This document shows, piece after piece, positions 1,881 to 60,316 of a stretch of DNA of 64,000 nucleotides. The number at the start of each line of letters is the position of its first letter. The first letter of the stretch is position 1. This DNA is from Naegleria gruberi (lineage: Eukaryota): assembly GCA_000004985.1 (NCBI GenBank), contig GG738881.1; one strand, 5' to 3'. Below the pieces are notes generated by a model. The model did no database searches. It was not told the origin of the DNA and saw only the letters and a program-made list of their open reading frames with translations. A program made the translations under genes and the position numbers.

Positions 1881-1954
1881 TGGGGTCAGTGAGGATCGAA
1901 CTCACGACCTTAGGATTATGAGACCTACGCGCTACCGACTGCGCCATGACCCCT
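1881..1954 (-). tRNA. tRNA-Met (anticodon CAT), elongator type.
   Basis: Reverse complement reads GGGGTCATGGCGCAGTCGGTAGCGCGTAGGTCTCATAATCCTAAGGTCGTGAGTTCGATCCTCACTGACCCCA. The cloverleaf has a 7-bp acceptor stem and a GTTCGATCC T-arm, and the anticodon loop is CTCATAA. The D- and T-arms are near-identical to metazoan elongator Met. An oligo-T run (A-run at plus 1872-1879) sits just 3' on the minus strand. Confidence 0.9.
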
Positions 1955-6157: not shown

Positions 6158-6238
6158 CGTTGAGGATGGGATTCGAACCCACGCGGATTACTCCACCAAC
6201 TTAGCAGGCTGGCGCCTTAACCACTCGGCCACCTCAAC
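6158..6238 (-). tRNA. tRNA-Ser (anticodon GCT).
   Basis: Reverse complement reads GTTGAGGTGGCCGAGTGGTTAAGGCGCCAGCCTGCTAAGTTGGTGGAGTAATCCGCGTGGGTTCGAATCCCATCCTCAACG. It has the long variable arm typical of Ser and anticodon loop CTGCTAA. A T-run terminator follows (A-run at plus 6151-6157). It lies about 70 bp upstream of the ZZ-GNAT start codon. Confidence 0.9.
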
Positions 6239-24847: not shown

Positions 24848-26737
24848 ATGGTCAGAGAATTAAAATCCGATGCTGAATTTAATACCGAGTTAGTCAAGGC
24901 AGGTGGTAAACTTGTTGTTGTAGACTTTTTTGCTACATGGTGTGGTCCATGTAAAAAGATTGCACCATATTTTGAACAATTAGAAACACAATATAAGGAT
25001 GTTCTCTTTTTAAAGGTTGATGTGGATATTTGCCAGCAAACAGCTGCCAAGTGCAATATTTCAGCCATGCCAACATTCCAATTATTCAAGAATAGATCCA
25101 AAGTTGAAGAAGTTGTCGGAGGAGATGTTCAAAAACTTGTCCAATTAATTAATCAACACAAGGGTGTTTCATCCTCTTCATCTTCGTCATCATCATCACA
25201 AGTTGAAGATAATGAACCAATACCAAGTCATCTTTCCACTGCGGAACAATTCAAAGAGGAAGGAAACAATAGATACAAGAAGGGATCATACAAAAAAGCT
25301 GTGGAATGTTATACAAGAGCTATTGAATTGGATCCAAGCCAAGCACCAATTTATACTAACAGAGCTGCTTGCAACTTACAATTACTCAAGTATAAGAAGG
25401 TTGTTGAAGATGGTTTAAAGGCTGCTCAATTGGATCCAAAATTCTCAAAGGCGTATCTTCGCGCTGGTCAAGGTTATTTACAAATGGGTAAAACTAGAGA
25501 AGCTAGGGAACAATTCGATTTGGCTCTTAAATTGGAACCAAATAGTGACTTGTATAAGAGAGAAAGAGAAAATTCTCTCAAAATTGAAAAGTACTTGTCG
25601 AATGGTAAGAGCTTTTTAGAACAATCTCTCTATAAGGAAGCTAGTAATGAAATGGATTTGGCATTCCAAATTGCTCCTCACTCAGTGCCATTGAAACTTT
25701 GTAAAATTGAAGCATTGATTGGATTGAAGGAACTTGATACTGCTGCCAAGGAAGCTAGCGTTATTCTTCGTGATATTGACAATAACAATTCCGAAGCTCT
25801 CTTCTTGAGAGGTCAAGCATTGTACTATGCTGGTAGTACCGAAAGTGGATTGAGTCATGTCACTCAAGCTTTAATGATTGATCCAGACAATCAAAAATGT
25901 TTACAATTCAGAAAGCAAATCAAGAAGATTGAACAATTGAAAGAGGAAGGCAACAAACTTTTGCGAGCTGGTAAATTCCAAGAATCCTATGATGAATATT
26001 CTAAAGCCATTGAAATTGATCCAAAGAATGCCAATTTGAATGCAGTTCTTTATTGCAATAGAGCTGCTGCTGCCACTAAACTCGGAAAACATCAAGTAGC
26101 CATCAAGGATGCTACCAAAGCCATTGAATTGAATGAAAATTATACAAAGGCATACATTAGAAGAGGTTCCAGCTATGTTGAACTTGAACAATACGAAGAT
26201 GCCATGCGTGACTATAGTAAGGCCCATGAATTGGACAAGGACGATGAACAAGTTGCACAAAAATTGAAGGAAGTCAGAAAGCTCTACAAGCAAAGCAAGA
26301 AGAAGGACTTTTACAAGATTCTTGGTGTGGAAAGAAATGCCTCTACTGATGAAATCAAAAAGGCCTACAAGAAGTTAGCCATGCAATGGCACCCTGACAG
26401 ATATATGGACGAAGAGGAAAAGAAGAATGCTGAAAATAAGTTTAAGGACATTACAGAGGCATACAGTATTCTCTCTGATCCACAAAAGAGACAACAATTC
26501 GATTCTGGCGCAATGGATGCTGATTTTGATGGTTTTGGTGGAATGGGAGGAGGAATGGGTGGTATTGACCCTAATGACATCTTTAGAATGTTCTTTGGTG
26601 GAGGTGGTATGGGTGGAGGAATGGGAGGTGGATTTGGTGGTATGGGAGGTGGAATGGGAGGAATGGGAGGAATGGGAGGAGGAGGAAGAAGAGGAGGCCG
26701 AGGTGGAATGGGTGGCCAACAATCATTCTTCTTTTAA
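24848..26737 (+). CDS. Thioredoxin - TPR repeats - DnaJ (J domain) co-chaperone with a Gly/Met/Phe-rich tail.
   Basis: Single 629-aa ORF. WCGPC thioredoxin motif ([20 protein letters not shown]). Multiple TPRs ([16 protein letters not shown]..., [13 protein letters not shown]..., [14 protein letters not shown]...). J domain [32 protein letters not shown] with the HPD motif. C-terminal [13 protein letters not shown] repeats. Confidence 0.85.
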
Positions 26738-55234: not shown

Positions 55235-57266
55235 ATGCCTCTTAAGAATTGTTTGATAGATTTTGCAGCCTATTTATTTTGTCCTAATGGTTGGTCGTCA
55301 TCAGCCAAATCGGAATCAAAGAGAAGAGTTTCAAGATGGAAGAACTTCTTCACCGATAAGGATTCTAGAAGAAATCATATTGCATCAGAATGGAGAAAAT
55401 ACCTGGTGGTTATCCTGTATGTGTTGATCAATATAGGATTATTCATTGAGGCTGCGTGGAGATGGCACGACATAATCGAACCTGTTGCAAACAGTCTAAC
55501 AGCCTTCCCAAAGGAAGATCGACTTAGGATTACTTGGTATGTTACCTTTGCTAGAGGTTTTGGGCAATTGCTGAATTTCAACTCGGCTCTCTTGATTGTT
55601 CCAACAATGAGAACCCTCTCCAATACATTGAGAACATTGAAATTAGGAAACATTATTACACTCGATAAGAATACCGTCTTCCACAGGTATATTGCCTATT
55701 GGATTGTTGTTTGCACTGTTGGGCACGGATTCTTCCACTAGTAAGTTATTCATTTCTTAACATTTACCAAAAATACTGTTTTTCTTAATAGTTTGAATTA
55801 TGCTAGCTATTACTTTGCCTATACTAATACACAAACCAAGGTTGAAAATTCCTTCATGGCCTGTTGGATTCAAAAGTATGGTATTACTGGTAACTTATTG
55901 TGTTTGGTCATGTACTTGATGTATGCCACAAGTCATGCAAATTATAGAAGAACCAAGAATTATACTGTTTTTTGGTATACTCACCACTTGTTTATTGTGT
56001 TCTATGTTCTTTTGCTTGTTCACGGAAAAGTGTTTTGGATTTGGTTTTTGGGACCTTGTGTCTTGTACTTGTTTGAAAGAATTTTGAGAAATGTTAGAGG
56101 TTCTGAGGAAACCATTGTAAAGAAAGTCAATTGTTTACCGAGTAGAGTATTGGAATTAGTATTGGAAAAACCAAGATTTGATTATCGTGCTGGTCAATAT
56201 TGTTTCATTAATTGTCCACTTATCAGTAGATTTGAGTGGCATGCTATGACTAGTAAGTTTTTAAAATAGTTTTCATTTTCTAGAAAAAGAAAATAGTTTC
56301 TTCTGCTCCTGAAGATGAATATTTACATTTCCACATCAAGTGTGCTGGAGATTGGACTAATGCTGTAATGGACTTGTTCAATCCTAAACAACATCAAACC
56401 GTTGTAATTGATAAACCAATGACACCTGACAATAAGGATTATTTGATAAAAATTGATGGTCCTTTCGGTACTGCAGCAGAGTAAGTTGTTAAACGAATCA
56501 ATGGCTTATTTGAAAATGTAATAGTGAGGTATTTGACTATGAAACAGTTGTTTTAATTGCAGCTGGTATTGGTGCTACACCATATGCATCTTTGTTGAAA
56601 CATTTTAATTATACGTTGGATCTTGAAAAGAGAGGAGGAAAGCCATTGAAGATTAAGAAATGTTTCTTCTACTTTATTAATAGAGATCACGGAAGTTGGG
56701 AATGGTTTTCTAACTTGTTGAATGAAATGGAAGACCATCACCCTGAATTTTTCGAGCTCAATACATACATGACTGGTAAATTGAAGGCAGAAGAAATTAA
56801 AAAGCTCTATTTCGGAAGTTCTGAATATCAACAAGCTACTGGTCACAAACAAACTGCTGATGTTCTTTTGAGAGCCATGTATGACTATACACCTGTTAGT
56901 TCTGATGAGTTGGAACTCCATGCCAATGATATCATTTCTTTGAAGGAACAAGACGAATCTGGATGGTGGGAAGGAACCAATCTCACTACCAATGAATCTG
57001 GTTTATTCCCAAGCAATTACGTTATTCACATTGATGCACTCACCAAGTTGAGAGAAAATAAGAATCGTCACTATGGTAGACCAGATTGGGAAAGAGATTT
57101 GGCTTCTGTTAGAAATTATGCAGAAAAGGCTCATACTCGTAAGGGAAGAGCTAAGGTTGGTGTCTTTGTTTGTGGTCCTCCAGCATTGTCAAAGGATGTC
57201 TATTCGTACTCTTTATCTATGAGTAGTCCTACTGTTCAATTCGTTTATCACAAGGAAAACTTTTAA
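55235..57266 (+). CDS. NADPH oxidase (NOX/ferric-reductase family) catalytic subunit with an SH3 domain inserted in the C-terminal dehydrogenase region. Four exons: 55235..55740, 55792..56252, 56297..56480 and 56525..57266.
   Basis: Heme-His helices (HRYIAYWIVVCTVGHGFFH; FWYTHHLFIVFYVLLLVHG). FAD/NADPH motifs (FEWHAMT|ISSAPEDEYLHFHIKCAGDWT; GPFGTAAE|DVFDYETVVLIAAGIGATPYASLL; C-terminal VGVFVCGPPALSKDV...FVYHKENF). Introns of 51, 44 and 44 nt (GTAAGT...AG). The SH3 domain is AMYDYTPVSSDELELHANDIISLKEQDESGWWEGTNLTTNESGLFPSNYV. Confidence 0.8.
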
Positions 57267-57396: not shown

Positions 57397-59034
57397 ATGC
57401 CACACATTGCAGTAGAAGGATGTTGTCATGGTGATCTCGACAAGATCTATGCAACACTAGAGCATGCCATTGAACAAAAACAATTAAAGGATCAACAAGA
57501 ATTAGCCTTGAAATCTGTCGAATCGGATGATGATTTTTTAAATGCTCTCGAAGAATACAAAAAACCAAGCATTGATCTCTTACTTGTTTGTGGAGATTTT
57601 GAATGTATTAGACATGCAGATGATTTAAATAGTATGAGTGTACCTGATAAATATAAGGAATGGAAGGATTTTCACAAATATTTCCCTCAAAGTCAACTCC
57701 GAAAGGAAGGAGAAGAAACTAAAGTAGCACCAATGCCAACATTATTCATTGGAGGTTTGTTTTTTTAATTTCAACACATAATTCTAATTTACATTGGATT
57801 AATTTTCATCTAATCTGGTAAAATATGATGATGATGAATTTTAATAATTAATATTTTAGGAAATCATGAAGCTAGTCTCTACTTGATGAGTTTACCATTT
57901 GGTGGATTTGTGACTGATAAAATTTATTTTATGGGAAATTGTGGATTTGTTCAATTCAAGAAGAAGTTTTCAAATGGTAGAATGACCAGTATGAGAATTG
58001 GAGGTTGGAGTGGAATTTATAAGGATAATGATTTTTGGAAGGATAGTGCAAGATTTTTACTTCCAAAACAAGAAAAGGGACTCGCTCAGGAAGAAGATAC
58101 AAACCTAGGAACTACTCTGTTCGATGAACAACATGTACCATTCTCTGAGAATGCAAAGAGAAGTGTTTATCATGTGAGATTTTTCGAATTTTGGAAAATA
58201 ATGAATATGAAACTATGTTTGAAAGCTAAAGAAGAAAGTCAACCTCTTGATATTTTCCTTTCGCATGATTGGCCAACTGGAGTGACTAGACATGGTGATT
58301 TGACAAATATTAGACGTTTTAAGGATCATGTAATGAAGGAAATTGAGGAATCAGATCACAAACTTGGAAATCCTTGGGGAGAGAAATTATTGACCGAATT
58401 AGAGCCAAAGTTTTGGTTTGCTGCCCACATGCATTGTAAATTCTCCTCCGTTGTTACACATACAGAGACAGTTTCTCAATCTAGCACTTTGAAGAAGAAT
58501 ACCAAATTCCTTGCTCTGGATAAGTGTTTACCAAAGAGAGACTTTTTACAAATGGTTGATATGGATCACTATATTGAATACGCCAACCACGATGAACTAT
58601 TGGAAAATGAAAAGGAAGGAGAATACTATTTTGATTTGGATTGGCTTGCCATCACAAAATTGTTCCATGCCTACAGATATGAAATCTCCAAATTATTGAA
58701 ACAACCAAATATTCAAAAGATTCAAAGAAATGCCGATCAACTAGACAAGAATTTCAATTATTCTCAAATTGTAGAACACGTCAACTCTACGCCTCTCCCA
58801 TTCATAAAGAGTAGAATGTATCCTCTCTTCACTTTGGAAGAAATTGAGAAGGAAAAGAATTGGATTCTCGAGAGAAGTAAGACCTATGATGATGGAAAGT
58901 TTGCCAATTTGCGTATCCCAATACCAACAAGCTATTCTTTGGGTGCTTTGAATGGTAATGTAAATGAAAGATTGCCACTTCAAATGAATCCTCAAACTGT
59001 TGAACTATTGGACTTTCTTGGATTGAATGAATAA
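57397..59034 (+). CDS. DBR1: Lariat debranching enzyme (Dbr1, metallophosphoesterase). Two exons: 57397..57754 and 57860..59034.
   Basis: MPHIAVEGCCHGDLDKIY...LLLVCGDFE...TLFIGG|GTTTGT. After a 105-nt intron ending TTTTAG, exon 2 gives NHEAS...GGWSGIY...IFLSHDWP...FWFAAHMHCKF...FLALDKCLP. All Dbr1 signature blocks are present in order. Confidence 0.85.
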
Positions 59035-59260: not shown

Positions 59261-60025
59261 TTACAGTCCAGGTCCGAGTGGAACTCTGTGAATTACTGAA
59301 AAACTAGTTTCCTTATCAGGTCTGTAAATAAGACAAACTTCATTCACTCTGACAGTGACAGGTTTCCATTTAGAATTTAGTTCCTTAACCTTCTTTTCCA
59401 CAAACTTTAAAGCTTGTTGTCCAACAGTCAAGTGAGGCACAAATTCACCCTTCTCATTCTTCTTCTCATCACAATATGGAAATAGTTCTGCAATCAATGC
59501 TTGCACTTGTTGCAATTTCTTTATACTTTCCTCATCCTGATCCAACCACATAACACTCGAATTCTTGGCAAAATAATTCACTCCACTAAATGTAATATCA
59601 AACGGCTCAACACGTGCCAATTTCTCCCTAATTAATTCCTGAGCTTGTTCAAAGTATTGCTCTGGAATGAACGGAAAGAGGAAATTAATGTGTGGAGGCC
59701 ATCTTTCATAAGCTTTATCCATCACTGATCTCATCTCTTGAATAGGTTCCCATATTTCTGTTGGTGCAATAAAACAACAAGCTGTATGGAAAGCCTTTGA
59801 TGAATTATTCTTTACATCTGAAGAGGATGATGAAAATATATTTCCAAATGTTGATTCAATTTCTGTGGTTCCGTACTCCATCAAGAGTGCTTCCTTTTCC
59901 TTCTTACCATTATTCTTCTTCTTTTGATTATTATTTAAATTATTGTTATTATTATTAGCTTGTGATGGTGATGAGGCAACATGTTGAGAGGAGAATGAAA
60001 ATTGTTTAGATGTGGATGACGACAT
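59261..60025 (-). CDS. 2H-phosphoesterase-superfamily (LigT/cyclic-phosphodiesterase-like) protein. The start is probably MSSSTSK at about 60025, although the listed ORF extends to 60298.
   Basis: Second catalytic motif VPHLTVG (H-x-T-x), and an upstream FHTACCF region in the right spacing. The 90 codons upstream of 60025 are AT-rich low-complexity with no ATG context, so the shorter model is preferred. Confidence 0.55.
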   Translation of the reverse strand: MSSSTSKQFSFSSQHVASSPSQANNNNNNLNNNQKKKNNGKKEKEALLMEYGTTEIESTFGNIFSSSSSDVKNNSSKAFHTACCFIAPTEIWEPIQEMRSVMDKAYERWPPHINFLFPFIPEQYFEQAQELIREKLARVEPFDITFSGVNYFAKNSSVMWLDQDEESIKKLQQVQALIAELFPYCDEKKNEKGEFVPHLTVGQQALKFVEKKVKELNSKWKPVTVRVNEVCLIYRPDKETSFSVIHRVPLGPGL

Positions 60026-60316
60026 GATTAATAATGATTCTGCAGCTAGTACTTGTCTAATTAAATTATTCGTTATTGTCTTGTTTTTAAATAATATGAA
60101 ACTCTTTGATCGGAGCAAACGCGAGTTGTAACTTTTTAAAATAAATTTTTTCATGATATCAATTTTGGAAATGCACAGTTTGATAAGCTTGAAAGTTTGA
60201 TTATCAACTTGCACCTTCACATCATTGTATAAGTGGCGTGTAATATTAACACAATACATTACAAAGATTACAATACAGATATTTTGTAAAAGTTTCACTT
60301 GTTGATTGATGAAAGG

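What the first reader, a model, noticed from the sequence alone, without database searches (positions are those of the whole stretch)
56868..57035. NADPH oxidase catalytic subunit with an SH3 domain embedded in its NADPH-binding lobe
The NOX-family gene at 55235..57266 has the expected heme-His helices and FAD/NADPH motifs. About 55 residues, AMYDYTPVSSDELELHANDIISLKEQDESGWWEGTNLTTNESGLFPSNYV, form a textbook SH3 domain (ALYDY start, acidic RT-loop, WW, G.FPSNYV end). They are inserted in the dehydrogenase-domain loop between the nucleotide-binding segments.

In characterised NOX systems the SH3 domains sit on separate organiser proteins (p47phox/NOXO1 class) that dock onto a proline-rich partner. 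A NOX that carries its own SH3 domain implies either a self-contained regulatory interaction or recruitment of a proline-rich partner directly to the catalytic subunit. The protein also lacks EF-hands and has an N-terminal extension of about 80 aa.
Basis: partly seen in the sequence, partly recalled or inferred. Interest (0 to 1): 0.7.

Follow-up and report, generated by a model that had tools for sequence, protein, structure and literature searches.

The report
Naegleria NADPH oxidase with built-in SH3
The Naegleria gruberi NADPH oxidase gene really does carry a complete SH3 protein-docking domain inside its NADPH-binding lobe, but this was already reported in 2013 and the binding partner is still unknown.

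Summary
The window is Naegleria gruberi. The four-exon gene at 55235..57266 encodes a 630-aa NOX that is 100% identical to a deposited N. gruberi protein. Residues 500-547 score 54.5 bits (E 8.7e-15) against Pfam SH3_1, and NAD_binding_6 matches end to end around them. AlphaFold2 models the SH3 at pLDDT 94-97.

The finding is not new. Zhang et al. [quoted passage not shown]

What I add:
- The insert sits inside the "NADPH-domain insertion sequence" (NOX2 484-504), three residues before the equivalent of NOX2 Asp500, a residue needed for oxidase assembly.
- The architecture is shared by 23 sequences that form one clade. The named ones are all Discoba (Naegleria, Willaertia, Acrasis, Pharyngomonas, Percolomonas, and the jakobid Andalucia).
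- The ligand-binding residues are conserved, and the SH3 is as constrained as the catalytic parts.
- SH3-NOX fusions arose at least twice more, at the N-terminus.

No partner could be identified. The likeliest mechanism is direct docking of a proline-rich regulator onto the dehydrogenase domain, and this is inferred. The stated 80-aa N-terminal extension is about 44 aa.

The parts
55235..57266 (+). Complete NOX-SH3 gene of Naegleria gruberi. Exons: 55235-55740, 55792-56252, 56297-56480, 56525-57266. 630 codons plus TAA.
   Evidence: The spliced ORF is 100% identical to deposited N. gruberi protein P0001. Three intron positions are shared with the N. fowleri orthologue.
55628..56014 (+). Ferric-reductase transmembrane domain core (aa 132-243, spanning intron 1). 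Heme-ligand codons: H150 (55682-55684), H164 (55724-55726), H233 (55982-55984), H246 (56021-56023).
   Evidence: Pfam Ferric_reduct, 51.6 bits. The four histidines are invariant in alignment A1.
56117..56475 (+). FAD-binding domain (aa 278-382, spanning intron 2). The FAD motif reads HAMT (56240-56251) instead of the usual HPFT.
   Evidence: Pfam FAD_binding_8, E 1e-19. H319 and T322 are invariant.
56538..56780 (+). First half of the NADPH-binding domain (aa 389-469), including GIGATP (56565-56582). It ends at the ...YMTGK strand, which aligns with NOX2 ...YLTGW483.
   Evidence: Pfam NAD_binding_6. phmmer alignment to NOX2 chain 8gz3_B.
56781..56861 (+). Helical linker (aa 470-496). This is the retained helical part of the NOX 'NADPH-domain insertion sequence' plus a short variable tether to the SH3.
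   Evidence: AF2 helices 472-481 and 483-489, pLDDT 82-86. It aligns with the NOX2/NoxA segment that follows LTGW.
56862..57032 (+). SH3 domain (aa 497-553; Pfam SH3_1 core 500-547 = 56871-57014).
   Evidence: Pfam SH3_1, 54.5 bits. Matches Fyn, CD2AP and sorbin SH3 structures at E 1e-9 to 1e-11. AF2 models it as a beta-strand domain at pLDDT 94-97. Ligand-groove residues are conserved in 15-22 of 22 relatives.
57033..57035 (+). Asp554 codon, the equivalent of NOX2 Asp500.
   Evidence: phmmer aligns query I553-D554 with NOX2 K499-D500. D554 is present in 22 of 22 SH3-clade sequences. The role of NOX2 Asp500 in oxidase assembly is described in PMC4550764 and PMC11647612.
57036..57263 (+). Second half of the NADPH-binding domain (aa 555-630), with GRP 568-570, CGP 600-602 (57171-57179) and the terminal KENF.
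   Evidence: Pfam NAD_binding_6 continues to profile position 155. Aligns with NOX2 499-570.

Best explanation
This is the NoxA-type (NOX1-4-like, EF-hand-less) NADPH oxidase of Naegleria gruberi.

A complete, ligand-competent SH3 domain of about 56 aa, plus a short tether, is inserted into the surface loop of the NADPH-binding lobe known in NOX2 as the NADPH-domain insertion sequence (NIS, residues 484-504). It sits directly before the conserved Asp that corresponds to NOX2 Asp500. The N- and C-termini of an SH3 fold lie next to each other, so the domain can sit in a loop without disturbing the Rossmann fold.

The most likely function is a built-in docking module. It would bind a PxxP motif of a separate regulator, either a p67phox/NoxR-like activator or a p22phox-like membrane partner. 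That would bring the regulator directly to the part of the dehydrogenase domain where the cytosolic factors engage in NOX2, doing in cis what the SH3 domains of p47phox/NOXO1 do in trans. Binding would then promote or permit electron flow from NADPH to FAD.

Shown here: gene structure, domain identity, exact insertion site, predicted fold, conservation, clade distribution.

Inferred: that the SH3 binds a proline-rich ligand, which ligand, and that binding regulates activity.
For: - Domain calls and the end-to-end NAD_binding_6 match around the SH3.
- NOX2 alignment places query 470-552 in place of NOX2 484-498, with D554 = D500.
- The literature defines the NIS as 484-504 and says it influences oxidase activity. 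Asp500 is essential for complex assembly, and Leu505 affects p67phox-dependent activation (PMC4550764; PMC11647612).
- AF2 gives mean pLDDT 90.7 and pTM 0.85, with the SH3 at pLDDT 94-97. All Rossmann strands flanking the insert are intact. The best structural match is activated-state NOX2, 8wej_B, E 9e-42.
- SH3 ligand-groove residues are conserved across 22 relatives: Y503 in 16, Y505 in 20, D511 and E512 in 20 each, W531 and W532 in 22 each, P546 in 21, Y549 as 15 Y plus 5 F.
- Between N. gruberi and N. fowleri, pN in the SH3 is 0.149, the same as the whole protein (0.149), while synonymous sites are saturated.
- The SH3 is at the same site in every member. With the insert removed, all 23 SH3-bearing sequences form one clade. 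Named members are Naegleria, Willaertia, Acrasis, Pharyngomonas, Percolomonas and the jakobid Andalucia.
- No universally conserved internal PxxP exists, which favours a ligand in trans.
- Independent SH3-NOX fusions exist in Fabomonas tropica (N-terminal SH3) and in P0063 (two N-terminal SH3). This argues that an SH3-NOX functional link recurs.
- The p67-like activator of Dictyostelium, whose NoxA/B were reported as close to this protein, carries long proline-rich stretches (Kawahara 2007, supplementary file 1).
Against: - No partner was found. Kawahara et al. 2007 found no phox-type regulatory subunit in the N. gruberi genome. My attempts to reach p22phox-like or p67-like proteins returned nothing usable.
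- No binding or activity data exist for any member. The searchable literature holds no functional study of a Naegleria NOX.
- The tools return no coordinates. I therefore could not check whether the SH3 groove is solvent-exposed or packed against the enzyme in the model.
Confidence: 0.55

Rival explanations
1. Targeting rather than activation. The SH3 tethers the oxidase to proline-rich cytoskeletal or endocytic proteins (WASP/formin/dynamin-type), so that ROS is made at phagosomes, pseudopods or the contractile vacuole. It would have no direct effect on catalysis.
For: The closest solved SH3 domains by sequence belong to Fyn/Hck kinases and to actin or endocytosis adaptors: CD2AP, sorbin/vinexin, myosin-1e, PACSIN3, CIN85. 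The groove residues are generic class I/II PxxP-binding residues. N-terminal SH3 fusions in Fabomonas and P0063 show that the SH3 does not have to sit on the dehydrogenase domain to be useful to a NOX.
Against: In the 23 sequences of the clade the SH3 is kept at exactly the same place, three residues from the Asp500 equivalent. The NIS is a regulatory loop in NOX2. A pure address tag would be expected to tolerate other positions such as the termini.
Confidence: 0.25
2. Intramolecular switch. The SH3 binds a motif within the same polypeptide and holds the NIS over the NADPH site, giving autoinhibition that is released by a competing ligand or by phosphorylation. One candidate motif is KPxTP at aa 362-366 in the FAD-domain loop.
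For: A PxxP at aa 363-366 (VIDKPMTPDNK) is present in 12 of 22 clade members. The NIS was proposed to control NADPH access (PMC4550764). The linker and SH3 are modelled with high confidence rather than as a floppy appendage (pLDDT 82-97, pTM 0.85).
Against: The motif is absent from 10 of 22 members, including Acrasis and the jakobid branch. It does not fit class I or class II SH3 consensus because the basic residue is at -1. No other conserved internal PxxP exists.
Confidence: 0.12
3. Artefact or relic. The SH3 results from a mis-joined gene model or assembly error, or it is a decaying insertion with no function.
For: None found.
Against: The SH3 lies in frame in the middle of a single exon with no donor-like site before it. 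The same architecture occurs in independent genomes and transcriptomes of at least eight species. Binding residues are conserved and the domain is as constrained as the catalytic parts.
Confidence: 0.01

Closest known systems
N. gruberi NOX homologues with an SH3 in the NADPH-binding domain, architecture 'M17' of Zhang et al. 2013 (PLoS One 8:e58126). Named N. gruberi NoxA by Kawahara et al. 2007.
   Same: This is the same protein and the same observation. The paper states that N. gruberi NOX orthologues contain an SH3 (PF00018) within the C-terminal NADPH-binding domain and infers an unknown PRR-containing partner.
   Different: The paper does not map the insert to the NIS/Asp500 site. The passages I read name no species other than N. 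gruberi for this architecture. It identifies no partner. It mentions two N. gruberi orthologues, whereas this window holds one.
Human NOX2 (gp91phox) with p22phox, p47phox, p67phox and Rac
   Same: Same catalytic architecture: six TM helices, four heme histidines, FAD and NADPH lobes, no EF-hands. NOX2 is the best sequence and structure match. Assembly depends on SH3-PRR contacts, and the NIS loop with Asp500 takes part in assembly.
   Different: In NOX2 the SH3 domains are on separate cytosolic subunits and the PRR is on p22phox. The NIS is a 21-residue loop. Here an SH3 is part of the catalytic subunit and sits inside that loop.
Dictyostelium and other amoebozoan NoxA/NoxB
   Same: These are the nearest relatives without an SH3. 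In the tree the closest are Vermistella, Clydonella and Stenamoeba sequences. Kawahara 2007 reported the same relationship for Dictyostelium NoxA/B. They have the same short, EF-hand-less form.
   Different: They have no SH3. Their NIS is short (...GDEEK-DLITG...).
p47phox / NOXO1 organiser subunits
   Same: They use SH3 domains to bind a proline-rich region and so assemble an active oxidase. This is the proposed functional analogy.
   Different: They are not homologous as whole proteins. Organisers are soluble PX plus tandem-SH3 proteins. Here there is a single SH3, no PX domain, and the SH3 is covalently part of the enzyme.

Membership tests
NOX family, NOX1-4/NoxA-B type NADPH oxidase | Ferric-reductase transmembrane domain with two pairs of heme-ligating histidines, spaced 14 and 13 residues apart | tested here: met
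   Pfam Ferric_reduct, 51.6 bits. H150/H164 and H233/H246 are invariant in A1 and match NOX2 101/115 and 209/222 as given in PMC3591440.
NOX family, NOX1-4/NoxA-B type NADPH oxidase | C-terminal FNR-like dehydrogenase domain with FAD motif H-P-F-T, NADPH motif G-I-G-x-T-P, C-G-P and a C-terminal aromatic residue | tested here: met
   FAD_binding_8 E 1e-19 and NAD_binding_6 E 2e-42. GIGATP 398-403, CGP 600-602 and terminal F630 are present. The FAD motif is HAMT, with H and T invariant and P-F replaced.
NOX family, NOX1-4/NoxA-B type NADPH oxidase | No N-terminal EF-hand or peroxidase domain | tested here: met
   No EF-hand or peroxidase family at E<=0.01. The sequence groups with EF-hand-less amoebozoan NOX sequences.
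NOX family, NOX1-4/NoxA-B type NADPH oxidase | NADPH-dependent superoxide or H2O2 production | not testable with these tools
   This needs enzyme assays. No functional study was found in the library.
SH3 domain (Pfam PF00018) | Profile match above the curated threshold | tested here: met
   SH3_1 54.5 bits in context and 60.4 bits alone, against a cut-off of 22.9. SH3_9 and SH3_2 are also above cut-off.
SH3 domain (Pfam PF00018) | Small beta-barrel fold with ALYDY, acidic RT loop, WW and SNY ligand-groove motifs | tested here: met
   AF2 strands at 497-501, 520-526, 531-536, 541-546 and 550-553, pLDDT 94-97. AMYDY, SSDELE, GWW and FPSNYV are present and conserved.
SH3 domain (Pfam PF00018) | Binds PxxP-type peptides | not testable with these tools
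   This needs binding assays. Only conservation of the groove residues supports it.
p47phox/NOXO1 organiser family | PX domain followed by tandem SH3 domains in a soluble protein | tested here: not met
   There is a single SH3, no PX hit, and the SH3 is embedded in a membrane enzyme. The resemblance is functional only.
p22phox-dependent NOX complexes | A p22phox (PF05038) partner carrying a C-terminal PRR | tested here: inconclusive
   No partner could be searched for in the Naegleria genome with these tools. The indirect queries failed. Kawahara 2007 found none.

The most novel reading that the evidence does not exclude
The Discoba NOX-SH3 would be a self-organising oxidase. The SH3 in the NIS loop replaces the p47phox organiser, and a single proline-rich activator binds the catalytic subunit directly and opens the NADPH site allosterically, giving a minimal two-component version of phagocyte-type NOX activation. 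Independent N-terminal SH3-NOX fusions exist in an ancyromonad and in another protist; the latter possibly also includes a p22phox-like four-helix module. Taken together, this would mean that SH3/PRR-mediated NOX assembly is much older than the opisthokont/amoebozoan phox system, perhaps ancestral to eukaryotes.
Probability: 0.3. Interest if true: 0.55.

Novelty: already known. Interest (0 to 1): 0.3.

Why it matters
How NOX1-3-type oxidases came to depend on SH3/proline-rich subunit assembly is an open evolutionary question, and the role of the NIS loop in NOX2 activation is still debated. A natural enzyme with an SH3 wired into exactly that loop is a compact model. Identifying its ligand would show which surface of the dehydrogenase domain must be engaged for activation, and whether organiser function can be carried by the catalytic subunit.

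It is also the NOX of the genus that includes the pathogen N. fowleri, whose orthologue is 77% identical and has the same SH3.

The basic observation and its obvious inference have been in the literature since 2013. The value here lies in the finer mapping and the taxonomic breadth, not in discovery.

Tried and rejected
1. Partner search through the P0063 transmembrane module. It looked p22phox-like by eye. Pfam found no PF05038. PDB phmmer did not find p22phox. The homologue search returned nothing. Single-sequence AF2 gave pLDDT 62.5, too poor for fold search. Left as inconclusive.

2. Partner search with the TPR/activation region of Dictyostelium p67-like (sequence taken from Kawahara 2007, supplementary file 1). 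It returned a single unnamed metagenomic hit, P0127, and no heterolobosean protein.

3. Internal ligand. A PxxP scan of the clade found only KPxTP at 363-366, in 12 of 22 sequences. That is not enough to favour autoinhibition.

4. Proline-rich candidates in the window. The only proline-rich stop-free stretch lies in a short (122-codon) antisense frame near 26733. The neighbouring genes are unrelated: DBR1, a 2H phosphoesterase, an ion channel and a kinase. They are not syntenic with N. fowleri.

5. Representative-library search with the last exon. It was swamped by multi-SH3 proteins. It added only a few more NIS-SH3 fragments, the Fabomonas N-terminal fusion and a fungal NOX fragment with a non-SH3 insert at the same loop.

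6. dN/dS proper could not be computed because synonymous sites are saturated. Only pN could be compared.

7. Gene-model artefact and alternative splicing of the SH3 were considered and rejected.

Full report
**What is in the sequence**

It belongs to a four-exon gene: 55235-55740, 55792-56252, 56297-56480 and 56525-57266. The three short introns (51, 44 and 44 nt) each have GTAAGT...ATAG boundaries. The spliced ORF is 630 codons. It is 100% identical over its full length to a deposited 'predicted protein' of Naegleria gruberi, so the window is N. gruberi.

Pfam gives the following:
- Ferric_reduct, 132-243
- FAD_binding_8, 278-382
- NAD_binding_6, 389-613, profile positions 1-155 of 156 as one stretch
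- SH3_1, 500-547, inside the NAD_binding_6 match, at 54.5 bits (cut-off 22.9, E 8.7e-15)
- no EF-hand family at E<=0.01

The four heme histidines (H150, H164, H233, H246), GIGATP, CGP and the terminal KENF are present and conserved. The FAD motif reads HAMT rather than HPFT.

One detail of the finding is off. The N-terminal extension relative to NOX2 is about 44 residues, not 80 (A1).

**Where exactly the SH3 sits**

phmmer against PDB sequences aligns query 249-469 with NOX2 268-483, and query 553-630 with NOX2 499-570. Residues 470-552 therefore take the place of NOX2 484-498, and D554 corresponds to NOX2 Asp500.

NOX2 484-504 is the 'NADPH-domain insertion sequence' (NIS). It is absent from other FNR-type reductases and has been proposed to control NADPH access. 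Asp500 is essential for assembly of the oxidase, and Leu505 affects p67phox-dependent activation (PMC4550764; PMC11647612).

In the alignment with Dictyostelium and vertebrate NOX, query 470-487 matches the helical part of the NIS. The net insertion is therefore about 65 residues: a short variable tether plus the SH3. It lies between the NIS helix and the invariant Asp.

AlphaFold2, run on a 63-sequence alignment, gives mean pLDDT 90.7 and pTM 0.85. It models two helices at 472-489 (pLDDT 82-86) and an SH3 domain of five beta strands at 497-553 (pLDDT 94-97). All Rossmann strands on either side are intact. The best structural match of the whole model is NOX2 in the activated state (8wej_B, E 9e-42). 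The tool returns no coordinates, so I could not measure the orientation of the SH3 groove.

**Is the SH3 functional?**

- Across 22 relatives with the same architecture, the residues that form the canonical PxxP groove are kept: Y503 in 16, Y505 in 20, D511 and E512 in 20 each, W531 and W532 in 22 each, P546 in 21, and Y549 as 15 Y plus 5 F.
- Between N. gruberi and N. fowleri (77% identical overall) synonymous sites are saturated. The non-synonymous proportion in the SH3 (0.149) equals that of the whole protein (0.149).
- The SH3 lies in the last exon in both species, with no flanking introns. Three intron positions are shared.
- Exon 4 has no donor-like site before the SH3.
- Transcriptome-derived relatives carry the SH3 in frame.

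The artefact, relic and alternative-splicing readings are therefore rejected.

**Distribution**

The same insertion is found in N. fowleri, Willaertia magna (two paralogues), Acrasis kona, Pharyngomonas kirbyi, Percolomonas, the jakobid Andalucia godoyi, and a dozen unnamed environmental sequences.

In a neighbour-joining tree built with the insert removed, all 23 SH3-bearing sequences form one clade. The branch containing the jakobid Andalucia is sister to the rest of the clade, in which all named members are Heterolobosea. The nearest SH3-less relatives are amoebozoan. This points to a single ancient insertion, and all named members of the clade are Discoba.

A search of 1.84 billion cluster representatives added only a few more fragments.

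Two other architectures turned up:
- Fabomonas tropica (an ancyromonad) has a NOX with one N-terminal SH3.
- P0063, from an unnamed transcriptome, has two N-terminal SH3 domains, an extra module of about four helices, a short PTPAKKKKPTP tract, and then the NOX.

So SH3-NOX fusion has happened at least three times.

**Prior knowledge**

Zhang et al. 2013 (PMC3591440) state that N. gruberi NOX orthologues contain an SH3 (PF00018) within the C-terminal NADPH-binding domain. They conclude that an unknown PRR-containing partner regulates them. Kawahara et al. 2007 named the gene N. gruberi NoxA and found no regulatory subunit genes. No functional study of a Naegleria NOX is in the searchable library. 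The finding as written is therefore already known.

**Mechanism**

The best-supported reading is a built-in docking module. The SH3 binds a proline-rich motif of a separate regulator and holds it on the dehydrogenase surface next to the Asp500 equivalent, which is what p47phox/NOXO1 SH3 domains achieve indirectly in animals.

Supporting points:
- the fixed position in a known regulatory loop;
- the conserved groove;
- the lack of any universally conserved internal PxxP;
- the recurrence of SH3-NOX fusions;
- the long proline-rich tracts in the Dictyostelium p67-like activator.

The rivals are pure subcellular targeting through cytoskeletal or endocytic PRR proteins, and an intramolecular switch using the KPxTP loop at 362-366, which is present in only 12 of 22 sequences. 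None of these can be separated without binding or activity data.

My attempts to find a partner failed, and the tools cannot search the Naegleria proteome directly.

**Verdict**

The added value is the mapping to the NIS/Asp500 site, the conservation across the named Discoba members of the clade, the evidence of selection, and the independent fusions. Interest is modest.

Noticed in passing
P0138 (Fabomonas tropica transcriptome, EukProt EP00163), not in the window: A 618-aa NOX with a single SH3 at the extreme N-terminus (aa 8-55) and an ordinary short NIS. This is an SH3-NOX fusion independent of the Discoba one.
   Followed up: partly
P0063/P0122 (transcriptomes GILJ01/GILK01), not in the window: A 951-aa protein with two N-terminal SH3 domains, a module of about four helices, a PTPAKKKKPTP tract, and then a NOX. 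Pfam, PDB phmmer, a homologue search and single-sequence AF2 gave no support. If real, it would be a fusion of organiser-like, p22-like and catalytic modules.
   Followed up: partly
P0227 (Podila verticillata, NOX fragment), not in the window: It carries a low-complexity insert of about 50 aa (poly-Ala, Ser/Lys-rich) at the same NIS position where Discoba have the SH3. The loop appears to tolerate insertions.
   Followed up: no
window 56240-56251 (aa 319-322): The FAD-binding motif is HAMT in N. gruberi, N. fowleri and one Willaertia sequence (P0003). The other 19 SH3-clade sequences, including the Willaertia paralogue P0009, keep the canonical HPFT. The effect on FAD binding is unknown.
   Followed up: no
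window 56322-56333 (aa 363-366, within VIDKPMTPDNK): A PxxP motif (KPxTP) in the FAD-domain loop is shared by 12 of 22 SH3-clade NOX sequences. It is the only recurrent internal PxxP and a weak candidate for an intramolecular SH3 ligand.
   Followed up: partly
window 57397-59034 (+) and 59264-60298 (-): The gene immediately downstream of the NOX is a lariat debranching enzyme (a DBR1 C-terminal domain hit; its N-terminal MPHIAVEGCCHGDLDKIY looks like the DBR1 metallophosphatase start, a recognition from memory). It is followed, convergently, by a 2'-5' RNA ligase/2H phosphoesterase family gene. Two enzymes of 2'-5' RNA chemistry thus sit side by side.
   Followed up: no
window 47781-49262 (+) and 49461-50927 (+): A protein kinase gene and a voltage-gated-type ion-channel gene (Ion_trans) lie 4-7 kb upstream of the NOX. 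There is no evidence of a functional link. The neighbours of the N. fowleri orthologue are different: an LRR protein, peptidase M28 and DOCK.
   Followed up: no
L001 5154-5228 (N. fowleri orthologue): N. fowleri has one extra intron, splitting the exon that corresponds to N. gruberi exon 3 at codon 342. The other three intron positions are identical.
   Followed up: yes
window 1881-1953 (-), 6158-6238 (-), 45536-45607 (+): Three tRNA genes are predicted: Met-CAT, Ser-GCT and Met-CAT.
   Followed up: no
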